From positions 15,438,001-15,502,000 of the forward strand of contig OZ024747.1 in the NCBI GenBank assembly GCA_964016885.1: a DNA stretch of 64,000 nucleotides. Reading direction: 5' to 3'. The position numbers and the translations under genes were made by a program. Below, in pieces: positions 6,161 through 45,299 of the stretch (its first letter is position 1; every line of letters begins with the position of its first letter). Origin of the DNA: Eledone cirrhosa. Taxonomy: Eukaryota. The notes under the pieces are model-generated. The model searched no databases. It was not told where the DNA came from and worked only from the letters and a program-made list of their open reading frames with translations.

Positions 6161-6219
<59 letters not shown>

Positions 6220-6407
6220 GAAGTTAATATCCCCAAAGGTACTAAGTACCCCTGGAAATATATAGGGTGTCTATGATACAATGGTTGTTCTATGGTATTA
6301 ATTTGACATACCAGAACTATAATATTGAGATAAGCAGAGCAAGCAAGATTCAAACAATGTTTTAAAATAAATTAAAAAATATTATTTAAATATTTACCTA
6401 TTCCAAT

Positions 6408-6490
6408 TGCGTTTACCGACGGTTTCACTTCACAAAAGATTGAAGATCCCTAGGGACTTCCAATGGAAAAGTTTAGATCATCAGAGAGCA
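6408..6490 (-). ncRNA. Type I hammerhead ribozyme (left arm)
   Basis: tcatcag at 6478-6484 and taccgacggtttc at 6414-6426. Confidence 0.7.
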
Positions 6491-6751
6491 TTTTCCTTTC
6501 CTAGGACAAAAAGTCCCAGGAAGGGCAAAATATATTGCCATCTGCCAGCTAGCACAGGATCGAATGGGGCCGAAAATTTGACCTATGCATTAACCAGCTA
6601 ATAGTAGAAGAGGAAGTAAACATAGACGCATTGTCTACCACGCCACTAAAAATAGCAGCTAAATAGTTTTCGGCTCATTCGATCCTGTGCTAGCTGGCTG
6701 AATGCAATATATTTTGCCATTCCTAGGACTTCTTGTCCTAGGAAAGGAAAA

Positions 6752-6834
6752 TGCTCTCTGATGATCTAAATCTTTCCATTGGAAGTCCCTAGGGATCTCC
6801 ATTCTTTTGTGAAGTGAAACCGTCGGTAAAAGCA
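6752..6834 (+). ncRNA. Type I hammerhead ribozyme (right arm)
   Basis: tgctct-CTGATGA(6758)...GAAA-CCGTCGG-TA-aaagca. Confidence 0.75.
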
Positions 6835-7199
6835 ATTGGAATAGGTAAATATTTAAATTATATTTTTTTATTTATTTAAAAAAATTGTTTGAATCTTGCT
6901 TGCTCCGCTTATCTCTCGCGCGCTCTCCCTCTCTCTCTCTCTCTCGCCCTCTCTCTCTCTCTCTATGTATATATATATATATATGAATATATAAACCGCT
7001 GTAAATTCTGCAGCAGAATCAACCTCTTCTATAAATTTAGATTAAATAACACTGAGCCGCAGTAAGCTAAAATAATTTAATATAATGCATCAAACATCCA
7101 ATACGGAATCATCGTTACTTATGTGATGGATGTAAAAACTATATATTACTTTTCTTGAATGTGAAAATGGTGGTGGATACGAAATCCATAACTTTCTTT

Positions 7200-7800
7200 T
7201 GCTTCTCCTTTTTATTTTAATTTTCTGCACACATACTTTTTTATTATATACAAAAATACCTTACCACTACAACCACCATAATACTCTTACTTACCCGCTT
7301 AAAGTGCTTGTATTACATGTAACACCCTGCCATACAATAATCATATATAAATGAGACACACTTGCATGCTCCACGTGTAACTAACGCATACACTAACTAC
7401 TACCTCTGACTAACAAGCTATCCTCTTGCATTATCTGTGTTAACTGCTGAATGTATTTTAATTGTGTTTTAATTTTGTTTTCATTTTAATTTTGATTTTG
7501 ATTTTGGATTTGAATCGCTATACTGAAATAATATAGTATAATATATGTCACTCCACTCTACATCAATATATATATATGTATCTGTATGTCTGTTGTGTTG
7601 GAAAGGGGGTCAATTATGTGTACAAACATTGAAAAATGCTCCGAAGACTCCAAGCCTAGGTTTGGATGAAACAATTGTAAGTGAATAAATGCTTTGAACA
7701 TAGCTTTGATTCTTGTGAATTCTATATAACTGCTCTGTAGAACAACTGATGTTACTACATTGAGCTACTTATCTTACTGTTAATAAGCTGGTAATAAATT
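7200..7800 (+). mobile_element. Solo Penelope-like pLTR / 3' region related to the 3' end of element 2
   Basis: Co-linear similarity to 36360-36760: ttttga repeats, taattatgtg...aaacattga..aatgctccga, tgctctgta.aacaactg, tacattgagcta. Confidence 0.75.
7637..7683 (+). ncRNA. Hammerhead ribozyme variant (CCGAAGA core)
   Basis: tgct-CCGAAGA-c-tccaagcctaggtttgga-t-GAAA-CAATTG-TA-agtg-AATAAA. Confidence 0.7.
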
Positions 7801-7880
7801 ACTAACGTTCACTGTTTAGAGTTTAAAATATACATAATTATAAAAAGTTTTAGTATATACATAACCATAAATAGTATCCC

Positions 7881-7952
<72 letters not shown>

Positions 7953-8005
7953 AAATAATAAAAAATAAACCAAAGAAGCCTTCAATACATGAAAAGTCTT
8001 TTTTA

Positions 8006-8043
8006 GCCAACAATGCTTCGTCCTATTGAGGACTCATCAGGGC
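8006..8043 (-). ncRNA. Hammerhead in the inverted pLTR (GAAA mutated to GAAG)
   Basis: Reverse complement reads gcc-CTGATGA-gtcct caat aggac-GAAG-cattg-TT-ggc. Confidence 0.75.
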
Positions 8044-8155
8044 AAGTAAAGCTACAAGAAGCACTATCGGCCAATACAGGCCAAAAACTCAGAATAATAT
8101 GGAGTATACATCTATTAAAGCCCAGGAAAGATATCAAGGAAAAGTAGGCTAAGAT

Positions 8156-9312
8156 ATAATTTTGAGAACGATTTACTTTCCCTTGTCAAAAATATAAAGT
8201 ATAGGCCGTATAATAGATATGGGAACTATAATAAGTTCAACAGGTTCCAGTCTAAACTTAAGAATATCGTTAAGGATTTTAAAGGGAATAAGTCTATTCT
8301 TGTCCCGGCTGACAAGACTAAGAATCTTTACTCTCTGGATTACAATGCTTACCGTAATTTTATCTATAAGGAGCTGCATAAAAATTACAAAAAGACAACG
8401 CAAGATAATTTGGATCATATCAATAATGAGGGTCTCAAGATAGTTTCGGACCTGGGCCTTGATAAGTATACCCAGCCATATTACCCTAGGGAACCGAGAT
8501 TCACTCTTAAGGATCATAAGGTAGACTTCATTAGTAATCCTTCTCTTAGACTCATTAGTCCTTCTAAGTCTGATATAGCTATTATTAGTAAGAAAATCCT
8601 TGACCTGATTATACCAGCCGTTAGAGAAAAGGTCCATTTTAATCTATGGGGGAACACTAAGGATGTTATAGATTGGTTCTCTGGTATTAATAAACTTGAG
8701 TCTAGTAGGTTTATCCAGTTGGATATTGATGCCTATTACACGTCGATTTCACCTATCCTCCTTAATAAAGCCTTAATTATGGCCATGCGAGTGTCTAGCC
8801 TTACACGACCGCAGATTGATGTTATACTAGCAGCCCGTAGGACTATCATCAAATTCGAGGATACACTTTGGACGCGCAAAAACACACCCAACAATTTCGA
8901 CGTTACAATGGGTTCGAGTGATTCGGCCCAGGTTACTGATGTTGTTGGGCTGTTCCTCCTAAATGAACTGTATGTTACCTTTCCGTACCTTAAAGGCGGA
9001 CTTTATCGTGACGATGCATTGTTTCTGATAAACTCTAGCACCAACAACGTTGAGCATAATAGGAAGAAACTTTATAATTTTTTTTTAAATGTTAACCTTT
9101 CGATCACGATTGATAGAAATGATAGAGCGGTCAACTTTTTATATGTGACTTTGGACTTGGTCACTAATAGTTACAAACCCTTCCATAAGCCAAATGAGAT
9201 ACTCTCTTATGTTAATTCCAATTCTAACCACCCCAAATCTATGATTAGCTCTATAATTAACCGTGTATCTAATAGAATTTCCACACTCTCTGAAGGATAT
9301 AGGAATATTTAA
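8156..9312 (+). pseudogene. PLE reverse transcriptase (no start codon; +1 frameshift near 9290)
   Basis: The frame is open upstream of the 8410 ORF (FENDLLSLVKNIKY...VPADKTKNLY...DHINNE). Motifs LRLISPSKSD, FIQLDIDAYYTSI, FDVTMGSSDSAQV, GLYRDDAL, YVNSNSNHP. Confidence 0.92.
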
Positions 9313-10612
9313 TTCACATGCAGAGTACTATAATAATTCCCTAGCTAACTCTGGTTACTCTGGTAAAATACGTTATAATGAGAACAACCTTAGAAAGTCT
9401 CCGTTTACCCATAATAATAATAACTTAATTTCCCATAATATGGCCATGAATGGGAGTAGAAAGCATAAGAATCGTAGAAATCCCATAGGTGTATCCGAAC
9501 CCATCCATAGGTTAAGCTACCGTAATCGTAATAGTGAGTCTAATGGTACACTTTTCGGGATTGGTTCTGGGGAACAAGTTAGGCACTCTGATATCTCACC
9601 CAGTGGTAATGTTTTTACTGATTCTAATAGTGTTGTTTCAACTGATCCTGGAAATAACCCTAATCCTATTGATATGATTCCAGATAACACTAGATATACT
9701 AAAGGTAGAAACAGAAGGAGACTCAATAGGGTTTTGGTCGCTTCTAATAATGTTGTTTCAACTAGTCCTCGTAGTAACCCTGATCCTATTAGTGGGATAC
9801 TGGATAACGGTAGAGTTCGTAAGGATAGAAATAGGAGGAGACTCAATACTTATTTTAACCCGCCTTATGATCATGAAGTGTTAACTAACATCCCTAGGTC
9901 TTTCTTTTCTATCTTAGAGAAAAATTTCCCTCCTACTAATAAATACCATGGTATTTTTAATAAAAATGTAATTAAACTATCATTCTCTACCACCCCTAAT
10001 ATTAGTTCTCATTTAGCTAGCACTAATAATAGGAAAATTAGGGACAGCTACTCCTCTATGCGTTCTACTAGTCTTGATGGATCCATTAATGCCTTACCAC
10101 CTTATAATAACCCTAGAAGTGATGCATCACTTTTTCAGCCGGTAAATAGCACCAGGAAGTGTAACTGTAGAGTAAGAATTAACTGCCCTTTAAATGGTCA
10201 CTGCCTCTCTAGGAACATTGTTTATGCTTGTGAAGTTAAGACTGATTCTTCTAATAGCACATATATAGGCTCCACATCTAATACTTTTAAAACTAGGTTT
10301 AATTCTCATATCTCTAATTTTAAGCATGTTAAGTTTAAGAACTCTACTTCTTTAGCACACCATATCTGGGATCTTAAAGGGGCAGGCATGCCATATAGCC
10401 TTAATTGGCGTATAGTAGCACGCTCTAATAACCTATCAACACACACTAAATTCTGTAATCTCTGTATCCTAGAGACCCACTCTATAATTTTTTCAAGGGA
10501 AGTTTTGCTTAATAGAAAGTCTGAGATATTTTCTCCCTGCCCCCATGCCATTTCTAATTCTTTCTTCTATTATAGACCTAAAAGTTCTGGTAGTTTAAAT
10601 TGTATCCATTAG
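9293..10612 (+). pseudogene. PLE thumb/linker plus GIY-YIG endonuclease (continues the RT after the frameshift)
   Basis: YFNPPY, IKLSFSTTPN, CNCRVRINCPL (CxCx5C), IVY...YIGSTSNTFKTRFNSH, CNLCILE, LNRKSEIFSPCPH. Confidence 0.92.
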
Positions 10613-12178
10613 CTGCTATATTTCCTTATCTTTTTTGTTTAGGATCATTTTGATTAACATCATCTTTATTAATTTTACTACTTTTCGATTTTAGTTTCCA
10701 TAGTCTTTTGGCTACCATACCCTATCTATCGTCTTAAGCATTATTATAGTTTCACTACTAACACCTTATGGGTTTATATCTTATTAAATACTTTGGTTGG
10801 AGTCTCATTCAACTAATGTACCTCCTCCTCTACACACTTAATATCCGTCCCTTCTATTATACTATATATAAATTTCACCTTTATGCTCCTTTTATGATAT
10901 TATATAATATATTGATTTTACTTTTATGCTCCTTCCTATCCTCCATAAACTCTCTTCTTTCTGTTCCCATTGGTCTACCATAGTTCTATTTAGAGTCCTT
11001 TTATTTGATAACGTTATTCGACTGAACGGAGCATATTTTACTCTATTCTTGATAATTTTATTGAAATATCTCAAACTTATACGTTTTTGATGACTTAAAT
11101 TATAGCCAATTTTGATGTGACTAAATATGTATTTTAAATACTTTTAATATTAATTAATTTAAAAACGTTTTCTAGTCAATTCGCCGCTTACATTTCTATC
11201 TCTTCTTTTACTTAACCGCTTGTGACACCTAAGTAAATATACTTGTTTTTGTTTTTCGATCTTCGGTTTATTTTATTTTTTTTTTACTACCACATGCTGT
11301 TCATTAATATATGTCTGTGTATCTCAACCACGTAAATATTTATTAAGCATTTCCTTAGACTCTGTTCGATATTTGATATTAATATTGTTATATCATATCA
11401 TTTTTATGTAATCGTTATTTTATGTAAATGTTATTTGAAGTACTGTTCTGTTATATTTTCTAATATTTTGTGATATTTTGGTAATACTTATGCCAACGTA
11501 AAACGACTTGACCTCCGTGTATTTGTCACAATGATATAGATATTTTTTTCAACACAATTTTTTCAACACTATTTAGTTCTATATGATTTTTTTCTTACCC
11601 TGTATAACCTTGAATTATATATATGATGTAATTTTGTATATCTTTTAATGCCAATATATTATAATATTGTTATTATAATGTTATTATAATGTTTTTATAT
11701 TGTTTATGCACACTGATAGGGAATTATATATTATGTTTTAATTTTTTTTTTATCTTTATTCTTATTTTTATCTTTATTATATTATACTGTAAACAATATA
11801 TATGTATATTTAAATACTTAATAAGTGTTAGTTTGTGTTTGTACTAATATATATATGTATAGATATATATATATACATATATTAAGCTTTTTATTATCAC
11901 CATCTATTATATTATATTATATTCTATATCGTACTGTAATTCTCGCATTATATTACCATTGCTGTTTCAAGTTTTTGCATTATATAATATTTACAATGTG
12001 GGTTCAACATGTTAATCACTTCCTTGCTATTTGGTCTATATCTATGTTTGTAACTGCTTACTCTTAATCTTAGCCTACTTTTCTTTGATAGCTTTCCTGG
12101 GCTTTAATAGATGTATACTCCATATTCTTCTGAGTTTTTGGCTTGTATTGGCCGATAGTGCTTCTTGTAGCTTTACTT

Positions 12179-12216
12179 GTCCTGATGAGTCCTTAATAGG
12201 ACGAAACATTGTTGGC
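12179..12216 (+). ncRNA. Minimal type I hammerhead in the 3' pLTR of element 1
   Basis: gtc-CTGATGA-gtcct taat aggac-GAAA-cattg-TT-ggc, then AATAAA at 12218. Confidence 0.85.
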
Positions 12217-12398
12217 TAATAAAGACTTTTCAAGTATTGAAGGCTTCTTTGGTTTATTTTTTATAATTCTTCGACCTCTGTTTAATTACATTGAGCTATA
12301 TCTTATACTGTCATTTCTATAATATGAAGAGGGTGTTTAACTCCAACACACTCTAGTATTTTAATTCTTATTTTAATTCTTATTTATATATATATATA

Positions 12399-12452
<54 letters not shown>

Positions 12453-12456
<4 letters not shown>

Positions 12457-13691
12457 TATAGACATAGAATATTCGAAAATATTCTGTATGTTTATAATAA
12501 ACATTTTGAAGACCTAATCGCTATAGAATAGAATACGTCACGTATTACAATTAGATTCTCGATAAAAGCAAGGGAAGTAATCTACGCGTTTCATTCTCGT
12601 TAGAAATCATCAGGACTACATATCCAGTGCTTTTATCGAGAATGACACAGCTAGAGACTTATAGAATACTTAGCTGTGTACAGGAACTGGTTTGAAAGAG
12701 CGGTTGCCGGTCCGGCAGAAATTAGAAATTGGAATAAATGCTCTGAAATAGCGATATATATGTGAATATAGACATAGAATATTCGAAAATATTCTGTATG
12801 TTTATAATAAACATTTTGAAGACCTAATCGCTATAGAATAGAATACGTCACGTATTACAATTAGATTCTCGATAAAAGCAAGGGAAGTAATCTACGCGTT
12901 TCATTCTCGTTAGAAATCATCAGGACTACATATCCAGTGCTTTTATCGAGAATGACACAGCTAGAGACTTATAGAATACTTAGCTGTGTACAGGAACTGG
13001 TTTGAAAGAGCGGTTGCCGGTCCGGCAGAAATTAGAAATTGGAATAAATGCTCTGAAATAGCGATATATATGTGAATATAGACATAGAATATTCGAAAAT
13101 ATTCTGTATGTTTATAATGAACATTTTGAAGACCTAATCGCTATAGAATAGAATACGTCACGTATTACAATTAGATTCTCGATAAAAGCAAGGGAAGTAA
13201 TCTACGCGTTTCATTCTCGTTAGAAATCATCAGGACTACATATCCAGTGCTTTTATCGAGAATGACACAGCTAGAGACTTATAGAATACTTAGCTGTGTA
13301 CAGGAACTGGTTTGAAAGAGCGGTTGCCGGTCCGGCAGAAATTAGAAATTGGAATAAATGCTCTGAAATAGCGATATATATGTGAATATAGACATAGAAT
13401 ATTCGAAAATATTCTGTATGTTTATAATAAACATTTTGAAGACCTAATCGCTATAGAATAGAATACGTCACGTATTACAATTAGATTCTCGATAAAAGCA
13501 AGGGAAGTAATCTACGCGTTTCATTCTCGTTAGAAATCATCAGGACTACATATCCAGTGCTTTTATCGAGAATGACACAGCTAGAGACTTATAGAATACT
13601 TAGCTGTGTACAGGAACTGGTTTGAAAGAGCGGTTGCCGGTCCGGCAGAAATTAGAAATTGGAATAAATGCTCTGAAATAGCGATATATAT
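12453..13691 (-). repeat. 310-bp hammerhead tandem array, 4 copies (ribozyme sense on the minus strand)
   Basis: Exact period of 310. Hammerheads at 12577-12619, 12887-12929, 13197-13239 and 13507-13549. Confidence 0.95.
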
Positions 13692-15751
13692 GTAGTCCTG
13701 ATGATTTCTAACGAGAATGAAACGCGTAGATTACTTCCCTTGCTTTTATCGAGAATCTAATTGTAATACGTGACGTATTCTATTCTATAGCGATTAGGTC
13801 TTCAAAATGTTTATTATAAACATACAGAATATTTTCGAATATTCTATGTCTATATTCACATATATATCGCTATTTCAGAGCATTTATTCCAATTTCTAAT
13901 TTCTGCCGGACCGGCAACCGCTCTTTCAAACCAGTTCCTGTACACAGCTAAGTATTCTATAAGTCTCTAGCTGTGTCATTCTCGATAAAAGCACTGGATA
14001 TGTAGTCCTGATGATTTCTAACGAGAATGAAACGCGTAGATTACTTCCCTTGCTTTTGTCGAGAATCTAATTGTAATACGTGACGTATTCTATTCTATAG
14101 CGATTAGGTCTTCAAAATGTTTATTATAAACATACAGAATATTTTCGAATATTCTATGTCTATATTCACATATATATCGCTATTTCAGAGCATTTATTCC
14201 AATTTCTAATTTCTGCCGGACCGGCAACCGCTCTTTCAAACCAGTTCCTGTACACAGCTAAGTATTCTATAAGTCTCTAGCTGTGTCATTCTCGATAAAA
14301 GCACTGGATATGTAGTCCTGATGATTTCTAACGAGAATGAAACGCGTAGATTACTTCCCTTGCTTTTATCGAGAATCTAATTGTAATACGTGACGTATTC
14401 TATTCTATAGCGATTAGGTCTTCAAAATGTTTATTATAAACATACAGAATATTTTCGAATATTCTATGTCTATATTCACATATATATCGCTATTTCAGAG
14501 CATTTATTCCAATTTCTAATTTCTGCCGGACCGGCAACCGCTCTTTCAAACCAGTTCCTGTACACAGCTAAGTATTCTATAAGTCTCTAGCTGTGTCATT
14601 CTCGATAAAAGCACTGGATATGTAGTCCTGATGATTTCTAACGAGAATGAAACGCGTAGATTACTTCCCTTGCTTTTATCGAGAATCTAATTGTAATACG
14701 TGACGTATTCTATTCTATAGCGATTAGGTCTTCAAAATGTTTATTATAAACATACAGAATATTTTCGAATATTCTATGTCTATATTCACATATATATCGC
14801 TATTTCAGAGCATTTATTCCAATTTCTAATTTCTGCCGGACCGGCAACCGCTCTTTCAAACCAGTTCCTGTACACAGCTAAGTATTCTATAAGTCTCTAG
14901 CTGTGTCATTCTCGATAAAAGCACTGGATATGTAGTCCTGATGATTTCTAACGAGAATGAAACGCGTAGATTACTTCCCTTGCTTTTATCGAGAATCTAA
15001 TTGTAATACGTGACGTATTCTATTCTATAGCGATTAGGTCTTCAAAATGTTTATTATAAACATACAGAATATTTTCGAATATTCTATGTCTATATTCACA
15101 TATATATCGCTATTTCAGAGCATTTATTCCAATTTCTAATTTCTGCCGGACCGGCAACCGCTCTTTCAAACCAGTTCCTGTACACAGCTAAGTATTCTAT
15201 AAGTCTCTAGCTGTGTCATTCTCGATAAAAGCACTGGATATGTAGTCCTGATGATTTCTAACGAGAATGAAACGCGTAGATTACTTCCCTTGCTTTTATC
15301 GAGAATCTAATTGTAATACGTGACGTATTCTATTCTATAGCGATTAGGTCTTCAAAATGTTTATTATAAACATACAGAATATTTTCGAATATTCTATGTC
15401 TATATTCACATATATATCGCTATTTCAGAGCATTTATTCCAATTTCTAATTTCTGCCGGACCGGCAACCGCTCTTTCAAACCAGTTCCTGTACACAGCTA
15501 AGTATTCTATAAGTCTCTAGCTGTGTCATTCTCGATAAAAGCACTGGATATGTAGTCCTGATGATTTCTAACGAGAATGAAACGCGTAGATTACTTCCCT
15601 TGCTTTTATCGAGAATCTAATTGTAATACGTGACGTATTCTATTCTATAGCGATTAGGTCTTCAAAATGTTTATTATAAACATACAGAATATTTTCGAAT
15701 ATTCTATGTCTATATTCACATATATATCGCTATTTCAGAGCATTTATTCCA

Positions 15752-15752
<1 letters not shown>
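13691..15752 (+). repeat. 310-bp hammerhead tandem array, ~6.65 copies (ribozyme sense on the plus strand)
   Basis: tgtagtcctgatga recurs at 13691, 14001, 14311, 14621, 14931, 15241 and 15551; reverse complement of the left block. Confidence 0.95.
13692..13734 (+). ncRNA. Minimal type I hammerhead of the 310-bp monomer (first of 7 plus-strand copies)
   Basis: gtagtc-CTGATGA-t-ttct aacg agaa-t-GAAA-CGCG-TA-gattac. Palindromic ACGCGT stem III; predicted cut after A13728. Confidence 0.9.
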
Positions 15753-17962
<2,210 letters not shown>

Positions 17963-18971
17963 AGATAAGCGGAGCAAGCAAGATTCCAACAATTTTTTTA
18001 AAAAATTTAAAAATATAATTTAAATATTTACCTATTCCAATTGCTTTTACAGACGGTTTCACTTCACAAAAGATTATATATATATGAAGTAATTGGTGAG
18101 TCAACTTTCAACATATAATTGTTCAACGACTTGAATAAGGGAGCCAGAGAAGGCTTAAAGTGGCTTGGTGTCGAAATTACTTTCCTGTAAATGGTCGCAT
18201 TTTACAAATTTTCAAAAGGGAACAATTTTCTGAATAGTACGTGAAAATCTGCATTGTAGTTGAAATAGCCAGAATGTCACTTTCTCTTAGTTAATGCGAT
18301 CTAATAGGCATTTAAAAGTGTCACCAACTGTAACACACACTCTCATGCAGACAAATATACCCCTACACACATAGACACAGACACACAGACACAGACACAG
18401 ACACACACACACACACACACACACATATATGTATATATATATATTCACATACAAACATACATACATACATGCATACATTACATATATACATACATACATA
18501 CATACATACATACATACATAGGCGTATATGTTTATATAGTGAATTAAAAATGCATTCAACTATGAAGACTATCTTTTGTACTGTTTAGTAAGCTAGACAA
18601 ATGATATAAGACTTAGCCGGCGTTGTTGCTGTCATCTTGCTTTTGTCACAAGTGGTAATTTATTAACTAAATATATAGACACGCGAACATAGAGCACAGA
18701 CTGAAAAGTTTGAGGTTATGGAATACCATAATCAATATAAACAATAGTGTGAAAGTTGCAAAGAAGATAAATAGTGCTAACGAACGATAGCAAATATTGA
18801 TTCTTCACAGTCATATACAATTCTATTAGGTGTTATACCTCCTTTTGCTATTACAATCCCATCTGTTGTTTTTTTTCTTGTATTCTCCCCCCCCTATCTC
18901 TCTCTCTTTCTCTCGCTTTATATATATATATACAGTATATATACATATATATATACATATATATATTTATA

Positions 18972-33320: not shown

Positions 33321-35310
33321 AACTACCAAAAAACTACTACTAAAAACCTAGAAGATATAAATATTGAAAGCCGTAATATAGTGAGTAAATTAGGACTTCA
33401 GAGACATACACAGCCATAAACCCCTAATCCCCGAATATTCTCTCCTGAAGGACCATAAAGAAGACTTCATTAGTAACCCTTCAATTAGACTGATTTGCCC
33501 TTCCAAGTCTGACATTGGTATTTTCAGCCAGAAAATATTAGATAAAATCATCCCACAATTTAAGCACAAAATATACCTTAACCAATGGGGAAATACGGGT
33601 GAGGTTATTAAATGGTTCAAGGGTATTAAAGAGTGTAAAAATAAAAAAAATTATACAATTTGATATCAATTCTTACTACACCTCTATTTCCCCTATCCTA
33701 TTAAATAAGGCTCTTATGGCCATGAACAATAGTGACCTAACTAGGTCCCAAATTGACTTGCGGCCCGAAAAACCATAATCACATTTGAAGAACAATTATG
33801 GACCCGCAAGGATACGCATAACAACTTCGACATAACCATGGGATCTAGTGACTCAGCGCAGGTCACCGATTTGGTGGGCCTATACCTACTTAACGAAATC
33901 CATAAGAACCTACCCTATCTCAACAGTGGTTTATACCGCGATGATGCGCTTCTTCTCATAGACTATAAAACATTTAATATAGAAAAAACTAAGAAACAGT
34001 TTCACAAATTTTTCAAAAACTACAATTTAAGTATCACCTAGGATAAAAACACTAAAAACGTCAACTTCCTTGACGCTAGACTCTAGAGTATACACACCCT
34101 AACATAAACCTAACGAAAAACTAATTTATGTGAACACCAACTCTAACCACCCTAAATCCATATTAAACTCCATTACCAAAGGAATATCTAATAGAATCTC
34201 TAATCTATCATATAATGAAACTATATTTAACAATAATTAACAATACTATAATGAGGCCTTAGCTAAATCAGGACATAAGAATGAGATTGAATTCCTACCT
34301 ATAAAATCACATAGTTACAACATTATTTCTCATAATATGGCCATGAGGAAAAATAGTAAAAATACCAGCCACTATAACTCTAAGACGAAGATTAATACCA
34401 AACTTAACTCGCACAAAAGTAAACACCACAATAATAATTTAAACAGGGATATGAATACCTCAAAGAATAATAATATAAACAAAAATAGAAGGAGAACTAA
34501 TACATTCTTCAATCCCCCTTTCAATCCAAACGTCTCTACCAACTTGCCTAAGGCTTTCTTCTCAATCTTAGAAAAAGACTTCCCGACCGGCCACAAGTAC
34601 CATAGCCTTATCAATAAAAATACAATTAAATGATTGTACTCCACCACACCTAACATAGCATACAATATAGCTAGTAGCAATAAAAGAAAGATTAATAACT
34701 ATTTCCAACTAATTAAAACACAACAGGAGGTAAACTTAGTACCTGTAAACAAAAGTAGTAATAATAGTAATAATGGTAATAGCACTAATGAAATCAATAA
34801 CAATACGAATGATAGGCTTCCTTACCCTAGTGCTACCCCTACAACCAGAATTCTTCACAACATAGGAACCGGCAAGCTAACACCCAGAATAAATGTAACT
34901 GTAGAACTAATAGAACTTGCCCCTTAGGTAATAATTGCTTAACCAAAGACATCATCTACTCATGCACCGTCAACGCAAACAACTCTTGTAAAATATATAT
35001 AGGTTCTACTTCGAACAACTTCAAGACGATATACAACTCGCACCTCCACTCTTTCAAGAAACACAATCTAGCCAGCTCCACTTCTTTATCTAGCTATATA
35101 CACTCTCTGAAAACTAGGAATAGACCATTTACACTCCAATGGGAAGTAGTAGGTAGGGCCTCATCGAATAAATTGTGTAATGTCTGCTTGCTGGAGACCC
35201 ATACTATAATCCTTTCGAAACTAGACCTCCTAAATAGAAAGTCAGAGAAATTTTCCTCGTGCCAACTCCGGTACCGAGACTCGTTCCTTAACTTTAAACC
35301 TAGCTGTTAG
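33321..35310 (+). pseudogene. PLE RT-GIY-YIG polyprotein with multiple stops and frameshifts
   Basis: NYQKTTTKNLEDINIE, MGSSDSAQVTDLVG, GLYRDDAL, FFNPPF, YSTTPN, KCNCRTNRTCPLGNNC, IIY...YIGSTSNNFK; co-linear with element 1. Confidence 0.9.
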
Positions 35311-44227: not shown

Positions 44228-44531
44228 CTCACACAAACAAACATGTGTGTGTCCCTCTGTGTGTATGTATTCATATATGTAAATGCACATGGGTTAGTAG
44301 TGTGAGAGCTGGATTCACAATAGTGAGGTCACGAGTTCGATTCCCGAACCGGACGATGTTTTGTGTCCTTTAGCAACGCACTTTTTTCACGTTACTCCAG
44401 TTCACTTAGCTGTAGTAATGGGTTTCGATGCAAGTGATGTCAAGTTATATTGGACGACATCAGAAATACACCTTGTCTCGTCTTGAATCAATTTCATTAC
44501 ACTTTATATGACTCCTACAGGATTAGAACTG

Positions 44532-44573
<42 letters not shown>

Positions 44574-44576
44574 CTC

Positions 44577-45299
44577 ACTCAGATGGTGGATGGGTGCTAC
44601 ACGAGAATGCTGAGGATGGCTCTGAACATTAATCAGTATACACTGAGGATGAAAAACTCAGAGCTGTATGGGAGCATCCCAAAAGTCAGCTCAAAAGTGA
44701 CACAGAGGAGACTGAGGTTGGCTGGACATGCTCACCGACATCCAGAGTTGACATTGCACTCAGTTCTCCTTTGGGAGCCCCTACATGGACACACTAGAAG
44801 AGGAAGACCAAGGTTAACATATGTTGATGCCCTAAGGACAGACACTGGTCTGTTGGAGATGCAGGATATTGCGGCGATAATGAGGGACAGAGACCGCTGG
44901 GGAGAACTCGTCCATGGATCTCGGGAATTTTACCCGCCTTAGATAGATAGAGAGATATATATCTAGGGCGAGTAAAATTCCCGAAATCCATGGACGAGTT
45001 CTCTCCAGTGGTCTCTGTCCCTCATTATCGCTGCCATGTCCTGCGTCTCCAACAGACCAGTGTCTGTCCTTAGGGCATCAACATACGTTAACCTTGGTCT
45101 TTCTTTTCCAGTGTGTCCATGTAGGGCTCAGATGGTGGATGGATGGTAGACGAGAATGCTGAGGATGGCTCTGAACATTAATCAGTATACACTGAGGATG
45201 AAAAACTCAGAGCTGTATGAGAGCCTCCCAAAGGTTAGCTGAAAAGCGACACAGAGGAGATTGAGGTTAGCTGGACATGCTCACCGACATCCAGAGTTG

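What the first reader, a model, noticed from the sequence alone, without database searches (positions are those of the whole stretch)
12453..15752. Palindromic concatemer of a 310-nt viroid-like hammerhead RNA (retrozyme) directly beside a Naiad Penelope element
Seen: ~10.65 copies of a non-coding 310-bp unit, with only two substitutions noticed (13119, 14058). Each copy has a minimal type I hammerhead with a palindromic stem III (ACGCGU). Stem I is extended by a perfect 16-bp helix (ATTCTCGATAAAAGCA/TGCTTTTATCGAGAAT), and there are further hairpins (acacagcta/tagctgtgt, tgccgg-a-ccggca). Known: metazoan non-LTR retrozymes are short tandem repeats with such hammerheads; they cleave as dimers, yield circular RNAs and are proposed to use PLE machinery. 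Inference: this is a recent genomic copy made by rolling-circle reverse transcription of a 310-nt circRNA by the Naiad RT/GIY-YIG at a (TA)n target. It would be a new family with an unusual two-armed layout.
Basis: partly seen in the sequence, partly recalled or inferred. Interest (0 to 1): 0.95.

Follow-up and report, generated by a model that had tools for sequence, protein, structure and literature searches.

The report
Two-armed retrozyme with Penelope insertion signature
This is one of roughly 1,600 young genomic insertions of a 310-base self-cleaving RNA repeat, each written as two mirror-image tandem arms whose ends carry the hallmark of Penelope-type retrotransposons, which gives genomic support to the untested idea that these enzymes copy small RNA circles round and round into DNA.

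Summary
In detail: 4.0 inverted plus 6.7 direct copies of a 310-bp non-coding unit, each with a type I hammerhead motif predicted to fold as a dimer. The layout is not an oddity but the family rule. The genome holds 16,673 unit copies in about 1,500-1,700 insertions at (TA)n. Of 74 insertions examined, 64 are two-armed. All 60 with two normal ends in view end at two fixed unit positions about 35 nt apart, one of each, never the same twice: the Penelope-like element (PLE) inverted-copy-plus-tail signature. Arrays fall into 28 haplotypes, nearly always uniform over both arms. Fixed variants never break the ribozyme (0 of 11); singletons usually do (8 of 9). An unrelated 466-nt family behaves alike. 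Best reading: a PLE enzyme nicks both target strands, primes at two sites of one RNA circle, rolls round it, and the two cDNAs join by microhomology. Cleavage, circular RNA and the helper enzyme are untested. Retrozymes are known; I found no report of this architecture.

The parts
12453..13693 (-). Left arm: 4.0 copies of the 310-bp unit, ribozyme strand reading leftwards; outer end is the 'short' end (unit position 169; unit position 1 = window 14310)
13688..15753 (+). Right arm: 6.7 copies of the unit; outer end is the 'tail' end (unit position 204)
13688..13693 (.). Head-to-head junction of the two arms, 6-nt microhomology ATATGT
14310..14619 (+). Reference unit (predicted 310-nt circle), non-coding, 34.5% GC
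14312..14354 (+). Type I hammerhead motif of the reference unit: stem I, CUGAUGA core 14318-14324, stem II with U.U base, GAAA, palindromic ACGCGU, cleavage predicted after A14348 (A13728 in the first copy of this arm)
   Evidence: activity untested
14288..14376 (+). 16-bp helix (14288-14303 with 14361-14376) extending stem I; the pair 59/297 occurs as A-U, G.U and G-C in different arrays
15719..15753 (+). 35-nt 'tail' (unit 170-204), present at this outer end and absent at the other
12391..12452 (.). (TA)n target tract, left side
15754..16783 (.). (TA)n-rich target tract, right side
8156..12390 (+). Neighbouring Hydra-clade PLE, 5'-truncated, RT and GIY-YIG parts in two frames (8119-9312, 9257-10612), canonical hammerhead at 12182, tail-type 3' end; context, probably a bystander
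7953..8155 (-). Inverted pLTR arm of that PLE, hammerhead at 8040, short-type end: same two-armed layout, tail about 100 nt

Best explanation
A young non-autonomous retrozyme family copied into the genome by a Penelope-like (probably Hydra-clade) RT/GIY-YIG enzyme, by double-primed rolling-circle reverse transcription. Steps: (1) an array is transcribed and adjacent hammerheads pair through ACGCGU and cut out 310-nt monomers (inferred from fold and from selection on the motif); (2) a monomer is ligated to a circle (inferred; shown for other animal retrozymes in PMC7229834); (3) the enzyme nicks both strands of a (TA)n tract (target shown; nicking of both strands shown in vitro for another PLE, PMC11167929); (4) the two 3'-OH ends prime at two fixed U/A-rich sites of the same RNA, unit 169-178 and 202-211, one each (end pattern shown; same molecule inferred); (5) each RT goes round the circle a random number of times, displacing cDNA (arm lengths shown, mean 4-5 units, up to 27; rolling inferred); (6) the two cDNA 3' ends anneal through 0-6 nt and serve as each other's second-strand template, giving the head-to-head palindrome; if one arm fails, the cDNA joins the microsatellite directly (junctions shown; route inferred). 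The window's array is one such event, landed in the TA tract left by an older PLE copy.
For: Dispersal: 16,673 exact matches to a 24-mer of the unit; 779 tail ends and 648 short ends on the forward strand alone. Ends: in the first 80 Mb of contig C1, 29 of 29 outward-facing end pairs are tail+short, none the same type (Fisher p 1.3e-8). The 21 unpaired ends there were all inspected: 11 are further tail+short pairs missed by the exact patterns, 9 single-armed (one at a gap), 1 an assembly duplicate. In loci picked by internal identity, 19 of 19 with two normal ends in view, plus the window, are also tail+short. The autonomous Hydra PLE shows the same complementarity in 5 of 5 two-armed copies with both ends, and a 466-nt hammerhead family in 18 of 20, none with two ends of one type. 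Single-unit bottleneck: 63 insertions with 3 or more copies give 28 haplotypes, fixed across both arms in all but L031, L089 and one copy of L098; a 311-nt variant forms whole arrays (2,090 copies). Copies differ only by 94 singletons in 204 kb; in 49 kb that both arms cover in register, 47 differences are private and 2 shared. 105 of 120 arms exceed one unit; lengths fit an exponential (KS p 0.27); 676 passes over the cleavage site show no indel and 3 substitutions; only 1 of 130 inner ends lies within 4 nt of that site. Selection: 0 of 11 array-fixed changes in the ribozyme break core or pairing, 8 of 9 singletons do (my classification by hand; p 7e-5). Either arm can be the longer (25 against 21). 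Three 466-family insertions share non-fixed variants between arms in register from the outer end, which places both primers in the same unit of one RNA.
Against: No RNA evidence of any kind, and no cleavage assay; in 10.64898/2026.07.22.740005 only 1 of 9 predicted frog retrozyme dimers cleaved in vitro. The motif has a U.U at the base of stem II and misses Rfam's thresholds. For PAc, ribozyme cleavage was not needed in vitro and uncut RNA was the main substrate. No helper was identified: the unit has no similarity to the pLTR of either Hydra subfamily fetched, and tail lengths differ (35, 74, about 100 nt). Singletons are overdispersed (p 8e-6), so some arose after insertion or in assembly, which weakens the 'not shared between arms' test. 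L031 and L089 switch haplotype in blocks; L068 repeats two variants 7 units apart; long 466-nt arrays (L122, L123, L136) are mosaic, and L120, L131, L143 need multi-unit templates. If only one source array is transcribed at a time, two RNA molecules would also give matching arms.
Confidence: 0.66

Rival explanations
1. Same PLE double priming, but on long, uncut linear read-through transcripts of existing arrays, as proposed for PAc itself; no circle is needed.
For: Uncut RNA is the dominant substrate for PAc in vitro. Multi-unit templates are needed for L120, L131, L143 of the 466-nt family, and block switches occur in L031 and L089. No RNA circle has been seen.
Against: It cannot by itself turn a single-copy mutation into a uniform array, yet 28 nested haplotypes are each uniform; arrays would shorten with every generation, yet arms reach 27 units; it predicts no selection on the ribozyme, yet 0 of 11 fixed changes break it; inner ends do not gather at the cleavage site (1 of 130).
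Confidence: 0.16
2. A monomer or circle is the template, but the second arm is made by fold-back or self-priming of the first product (self-priming on an antisense template was proposed for PLE inverted ends in PMC3846280), not by a second target-primed start.
For: Junctions have short overlaps and some fold-back-like inserts (overlaps 0-6 nt in 49 of 65); both arms share a haplotype; in L031 the inner copy of both arms has the same other haplotype; the singleton test is weakened by overdispersion.
Against: It does not explain why the second end is always the other fixed site (60 of 60); either end type can carry the longer arm (25 against 21); 466-family variants shared between arms are in register from the outer ends; in L031 the arm that starts later is the longer one.
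Confidence: 0.1
3. Short PLE-type insertions of a pLTR-like unit later grew into tandem arrays at the DNA level by unequal exchange (the satellite route discussed in 10.64898/2026.07.22.740005).
For: Mosaic long arrays in the 466-nt family and the 7-unit doublet in L068 show that some DNA-level turnover occurs.
Against: Within arrays, 94 variants are singletons and only 10 occur in several copies, a star-like pattern; both inverted arms carry the same alleles; ends and junctions are intact; divergence is under 0.05%.
Confidence: 0.06
4. Sequencing or assembly artefact (fold-back chimeric reads, collapsed repeats).
For: Some arrays lie on small unplaced contigs or at gaps, and one is duplicated across a gap (L075). 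The window's own junction was not checked in raw reads.
Against: Over a thousand loci with different flanks on each side, unique junctions, fixed complementary ends and locus-specific haplotypes; the unit is assembled as a perfect 340-nt cyclic contig in two public runs of different studies.
Confidence: 0.02

Closest known systems
Animal non-LTR retrozymes (Cervera and de la Pena 2020, PMC7229834; Li, Clavereau and Pollet 2026, 10.64898/2026.07.22.740005)
   Same: Non-coding, low-GC tandem unit of 170-400 nt with a type I hammerhead in every copy; weak stem III with a palindrome and a U.U at the base of stem II, each described for axolotl motifs that cut better as dimers; co-occurrence with PLEs; circle-templated tandem cDNA and a PLE helper were proposed there as hypotheses.
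   Different: Neither text, in the parts read, describes inverted two-armed arrays, fixed ends, a tail or a microsatellite target ('inverted' 0 hits in the first, only in a reference title in the second). The 2026 preprint links frog retrozymes to pLTRs by sequence; here no pLTR similarity was found and the link comes from the integration signature. Circle and cleavage are shown there, not here.
Insertion architecture of endonuclease-bearing Penelope-like elements: inverted 5'-truncated copy and 30-40-bp tail (PMC3846280, PMC8557442); two internal RT start sites of Anolis PAc (PMC11167929)
   Same: Head-to-head inverted arms, two fixed 3' ends about 35 nt apart, AT-rich target, microhomology at 5' joints, either strand able to use either site.
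   Different: The cargo is a non-coding concatemer of up to 27 units per arm, not an ORF with a pLTR. The tail was described as 'often' or 'optionally' at one end; here the two ends are strictly complementary in 60 of 60 insertions, a constraint I did not see stated in the passages read.
Hydra-clade PLEs (Craig et al. 2021, PMC8557442 section 11)
   Same: The neighbouring element and its intact 915-aa relatives: C-terminal GIY-YIG, DKT, CxCx5C, CxxC and CxH, canonical hammerhead, (TA)n insertion.
   Different: RWR in place of RWK; about 4.8 kb between pLTR hammerheads (published families mostly under 3 kb); tail about 100 nt. This names the neighbour, not the array.
Twin priming of L1 elements (recalled, no call)
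   Same: Two target-strand primers on one RNA, cDNAs joined by microhomology, giving an inversion.
   Different: In L1 the second primer lands at a variable upstream site and the two cDNAs cover different parts of a linear RNA; here both sites are fixed and both arms copy the same unit many times.

Membership tests
Non-LTR retrozyme | Short tandem unit (about 150-450 bp) with a type I hammerhead motif in every unit | tested here: met
   310-bp unit, 11 cores in the window; double-hammerhead fold; below Rfam thresholds
Non-LTR retrozyme | Non-coding, GC under 50%, no LTR structure | tested here: met
   GC 34.5%, longest frame from Met 30 aa; arrays end directly in (TA)n
Non-LTR retrozyme | Dispersed multicopy family | tested here: met
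   16,673 unit copies; ends counted
Non-LTR retrozyme | Self-cleavage of the transcript | not testable with these tools
   Indirect only: array-fixed changes spare the ribozyme, singletons do not
Non-LTR retrozyme | Expression as linear and circular monomeric RNA | not testable with these tools
   Only contig-level runs of unrecorded kind were available; circle inferred from array homogeneity
Non-LTR retrozyme | Sequence relationship to a PLE pLTR (2026 preprint) | tested here: inconclusive
   No similarity to pLTRs of the Hydra copies fetched; a separate short repeat family shares 26 of 28 nt of the ribozyme core and stem II but no ORF was linked to it; most PLE families of this genome were not sampled
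PLE-type insertion | Inverted 5'-truncated copy joined head to head | tested here: met
   64 of 74 insertions two-armed
PLE-type insertion | 30-40-bp tail at one end | tested here: met
   Ends at unit 169-178 and 202-211, one each, 60 of 60
PLE-type insertion | AT-rich or (TA)n target | tested here: met
   129 of 134 ends
PLE-type insertion | Target-site duplication | tested here: inconclusive
   Cannot be told inside (TA)n
Naiad (neighbour) | GIY-YIG N-terminal to the RT | tested here: not met
   RT motif at aa 364-378, GIY-YIG at aa 788-800 in three intact relatives; window copy in the same order
Naiad (neighbour) | No canonical hammerhead; DKA motif | tested here: not met
   Canonical hammerhead at 12182; DKT
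Hydra clade (neighbour) | C-terminal GIY-YIG, DKT, CxCx5C linker, CxxC and CxH, no GxKF/Y, canonical hammerhead, (TA)n target | tested here: met
   against the definition read; RWR stands for RWK
Hydra clade (neighbour) | Phylogenetic placement of the RT | not tested
   No reference Hydra proteins were on hand; assignment rests on motifs
Viroid or viroid-like replicon | RNA-to-RNA replication, ribozymes on both polarities in hammerhead viroids (recalled) | tested here: not met
   Motif on one polarity only; replication not testable

The most novel reading that the evidence does not exclude
These arrays are a natural in vivo record of two reverse transcriptases of one PLE complex running round a single ribozyme-made RNA circle from two obligate, different start sites. 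That would show at once that animal retrozyme circles are real transposition templates, that they spread under selection for self-cleavage as circle-DNA-circle replicons, and that the long-unexplained inverted-copy-plus-tail structure of all Penelope-like elements comes from paired priming on one RNA; several unrelated circles (310, 311 and 466 nt) would be competing for the same enzyme in this genome now.
Probability: 0.5. Interest if true: 0.87.

Novelty: new variant of a known kind. Interest (0 to 1): 0.74.

Why it matters
How animal retrozymes get into genomes, and why Penelope-like elements leave inverted copies with a tail, are both open questions in the papers read. Here about 1,600 nearly identical insertions record start sites, processivity, errors and junctions, and intact candidate enzymes (915-aa ORFs, 96-99% identical to each other) lie in the same genome. 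That gives a defined RNA, two predicted start sites, a target and an enzyme for a direct in vitro test. A target-primed enzyme that writes kilobases of concatemer from a small circle would also be of interest as an RNA-templated DNA-writing tool. The family occupies about 5 Mb.

Tried and rejected
Rfam scan of the whole window: nothing at gathering score. Pfam found no family for the RT fragment and only weak GIY-YIG hits. Search for RNA runs: no RNA holder listed; this says nothing about expression. Four of the six listed runs were laid as contigs on 6970-12900: they hold the unit, but depth could not be used for expression, and the array's own junction lay outside the stretch. Search for the helper: no similarity between the unit and pLTRs of 12 Hydra loci; a second Hydra-like family from window 34831-35307 gave mostly broken copies and was not followed; 12 loci of a repeat with a similar ribozyme core were fetched, 11 were printed and none linked to an ORF, and the script stopped before its alignment steps. 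Adjacency to the PLE as a causal link was rejected (1 of 72 other loci, about 2.8 kb away; flanks fetched were only 0.5-5 kb). My first idea that A59 was private to the window was wrong: the query carried the 14058 variant and biased L031-L054 to G59; L055-L102 were chosen by end patterns instead. Rows handled before counting: one duplicate of L075 across an assembly gap was dropped; L055 (complex junction) was counted twice by the script, so 75/65 are 74/64; variants within 30 nt of a junction or 45 nt of an outer end were ignored. Literature searches without a report of two-armed retrozyme arrays. PMC5785218 (PLE hammerheads cleave as dimers) was not held; only its title was seen. Supplements of PMC7229834 and PMC8557442 were not opened and those of the bioRxiv preprint are closed; they, or subscription papers, could show inverted arrays. 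Look-ups of earlier scan findings by sequence and by genome found nothing.
Full report
Observation. The array is as described. Period 310 at 12444-13693 and 13688-15753; the left arm is the reverse complement of the right, the only internal differences are at 13119 and 14058, and the arms overlap by ATATGT. Both outer ends run into (TA)n. I number the unit from window 14310. The ribozyme core is at 9-15 and 30-33, stem II (17-20 with 25-28) has a U.U at its base, stem III is the palindrome ACGCGU (33-38), and cleavage is predicted between 39 and 40 (A13728 in the first right-arm copy). The circular unit folds better than shuffles (z -4.3) and a stretch with two ribozymes adopts the double-hammerhead fold unprompted (z -6.6). 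Rfam gives no match at gathering score and only a chance-level HH9 score. The unit is non-coding. Axolotl retrozyme motifs with a palindromic stem III or a U.U at stem II cut weakly alone and well as dimers (PMC7229834).

The family. The unit matches the own genome (3.0 Gb) at many places with 99-100% identity. An exact 24-mer occurs 16,673 times. Exact end patterns give 779 tail ends and 648 short ends on the forward strand, where counts are not redundant. With 9.8 units per two-armed insertion this means roughly 1,500-1,700 insertions (my estimate). I fetched 72 stretches: L031-L054 from the best hits, and L055-L102 covering the ends listed for the first 80 Mb of contig C1. With the window they hold 74 insertions (75 by the script, which split L055): 64 two-armed and 10 single-armed.

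The ends. Every two-armed insertion has the ribozyme strand pointing outwards on both sides, so both outer ends are RNA 3' ends and the 5' ends meet in the middle. The outer ends fall at unit 169-178 or 202-211. In 60 of 60 insertions with two such ends in view there is one of each; the other four have an end cut by a gap, contig end or fetch edge, and one of them (L053) has an atypical end at 135. The blind pairing of listed ends gave 29 of 29 mixed pairs (p 1.3e-8). Left-right order is free (35 against 25). 129 of 134 ends adjoin (AT)5. The short site contains AUAUAUAU and can pair with the target; the tail site offers about 2 nt and lies in a mostly unpaired U-rich stretch. Inner ends are scattered over the unit, with 0-6 nt overlap in 49 of 65 junctions as counted by the script. 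Nine single-armed insertions join their 5' end straight to a microsatellite; the tenth meets a gap. An inverted 5'-truncated copy and a 30-40-bp tail at one end are the published marks of PLE insertion (PMC8557442; PMC3846280), and in vitro the PAc protein cuts and extends both target strands and starts at two internal RNA sites that bound the tail (PMC11167929).

The template. Among 63 insertions with three or more copies there are 28 haplotypes, nested stepwise, each fixed over both arms; exceptions are L031 and L089 (block switches) and one copy in L098. A 311-nt variant makes whole arrays and has 2,090 copies. Beyond that, copies differ by 94 singletons in 204 kb against 10 variants seen in several copies. 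Where both arms cover the same units in register, 47 differences are private and 2 shared, both from L089. Arms average 4.4 and 5.4 units, reach 27, fit an exponential and are at most weakly correlated (rho 0.22, p 0.09). In 676 passes over the cleavage site there is no indel, and inner ends do not gather there (1 of 130). Turning one mutated unit into a uniform two-armed array needs a single unit copied many times; exact joints favour a covalent circle over jumps between linear monomers. All 11 array-fixed changes within the ribozyme keep it intact (position 7 of the core, the cleavage residue, loop II, wobble pairs, repair of the U.U, one bulge), whereas 8 of 9 singletons there break core or pairing (hand classification, p 7e-5). 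So templates that founded arrays probably needed a working ribozyme. Against a clean reading: singletons are overdispersed (p 8e-6), so not all are RT errors; L068 repeats two variants 7 units apart.

A second family. Beside L050 lies a 466-nt unit with a different hammerhead (palindrome ACUAGU) and no similarity to the 310-nt unit. Of 32 pieces counted in 30 stretches, 18 two-armed insertions have ends at about 267 and 341, one each; L136 has both types with an internal break; L115 uses a third site; the rest are single arms. This family is noisier: three long arrays are mosaic, and three of the 18 share non-fixed variants between arms in register from the outer ends. These cases show that multi-unit RNAs are sometimes the template, and that both primers then start in the same unit.

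The neighbour. The element at 7953-12390 has RT before GIY-YIG and a canonical hammerhead. Intact relatives carry DKT, CxCx5C, CxxC and CxH and lack GxKF/Y, matching the Hydra clade and excluding Naiad, whose nuclease is N-terminal and which lacks canonical hammerheads. It has the same two-armed layout with a tail of about 100 nt, complementary in 5 of 5 copies with both ends. The window's copy is truncated and split over two frames, and this family is found in only 1 of 72 other retrozyme stretches. The adjacency is best explained by a shared (TA)n target. A subfamily with intact 915-aa frames, 96-99% identical, is a plausible helper, but no shared sequence ties it to the unit.

Mechanism and confidence. 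I put 0.9 on mobilisation by a PLE-type enzyme, and 0.66 on the full model: excision by dimeric hammerheads, circularisation, paired target priming at two sites of one circle, rolling-circle synthesis of both arms, joining by microhomology. Shown: architecture, ends, targets, haplotype structure, selection pattern. Inferred: cleavage, circle, same-molecule priming, identity of the enzyme. Rivals are linear multimer templates (0.16), fold-back for the second arm (0.10), DNA-level expansion (0.06), artefact (0.02).

Known and new. It is a non-LTR retrozyme by every feature testable here. PMC7229834 proposes circles as templates for tandem cDNA and PLEs as likely helpers; the 2026 preprint supports a PLE origin by co-occurrence and pLTR similarity and states that the mobilisation mechanism remains open. 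Nine searches of the held library found no account of inverted, tailed retrozyme arrays. Seen of each paper: 10.64898/2026.07.22.740005, parts 1-3 of 5 and a term search; PMC7229834, abstract, parts 2-3 of 6, discussion and a term search; PMC11167929, parts 1-2 of 4; PMC8557442, passages and section 11; PMC3846280 and PMC11722881, passages; no supplements. L1 twin priming is recalled. I rate it a new variant of a known kind, with interest 0.74, because it turns two open questions into a concrete experiment but lacks RNA and biochemical evidence.

Noticed in passing
L050:1-2835 and L115-L144: Second retrozyme family, 466-nt unit, hammerhead with palindrome ACUAGU, two-armed with a 74-nt tail; 309 first-look candidates in the genome; an array of it lies about 480 bp from a 310-nt array in L050.
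   Followed up: yes
window 16784-17240: Short two-armed element inside the TA tract, with a hammerhead-like core on the minus strand at 17096; relatives in L034, L043, L061, L064 show two different 3' ends. Probably the end of another PLE family.
   Followed up: partly
window 6215-6915 and 17960-18080: Another two-armed element (arms 6327-6576 and 6667-6915, 93% alike) with about 110 extra bases on one arm; a related arm at 17960.
   Followed up: no
window 33600-35310: Decayed second Hydra-like PLE (RT fragments, CxCx5C linker, GIY-YIG); many broken relatives in the genome.
   Followed up: partly
L107:712-847 (minus); L145-L156: Young repeat (99% alike, 1,075 first-look candidates) whose hammerhead core and stem II match the 310-nt unit in 26 of 28 nt; mostly tiny palindromic or single-armed insertions with two ends about 83 nt apart; no ORF found upstream in the 11 loci printed.
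   Followed up: partly
L052, L059, L066, L094, L104, L113: A further hammerhead family (stem II AGCU/AGCU, palindrome ACUAGU) in the flanks, possibly a third, older retrozyme related to the 466-nt unit.
   Followed up: no
L031, L089: Haplotype switches in blocks: in L031 the innermost full copy of both arms has another haplotype; in L089 only the two inner copies of one arm match the other arm. Unexplained; template switching between RNAs is one reading.
   Followed up: partly
L120: Alternating variant (every second copy in one arm, nearly so in the other), as a dimeric circle would give.
   Followed up: partly
window 44487-44942: Frame resembling the C-terminal part of an RTE-type LINE protein (resemblance recalled, not tested).
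   Followed up: no
window 12481-12824: Four of six listed public runs, under four coded organism labels, were laid; two hold the unit as one 340-nt contig with no difference from the window. Whether these are the same species was not established.
   Followed up: partly
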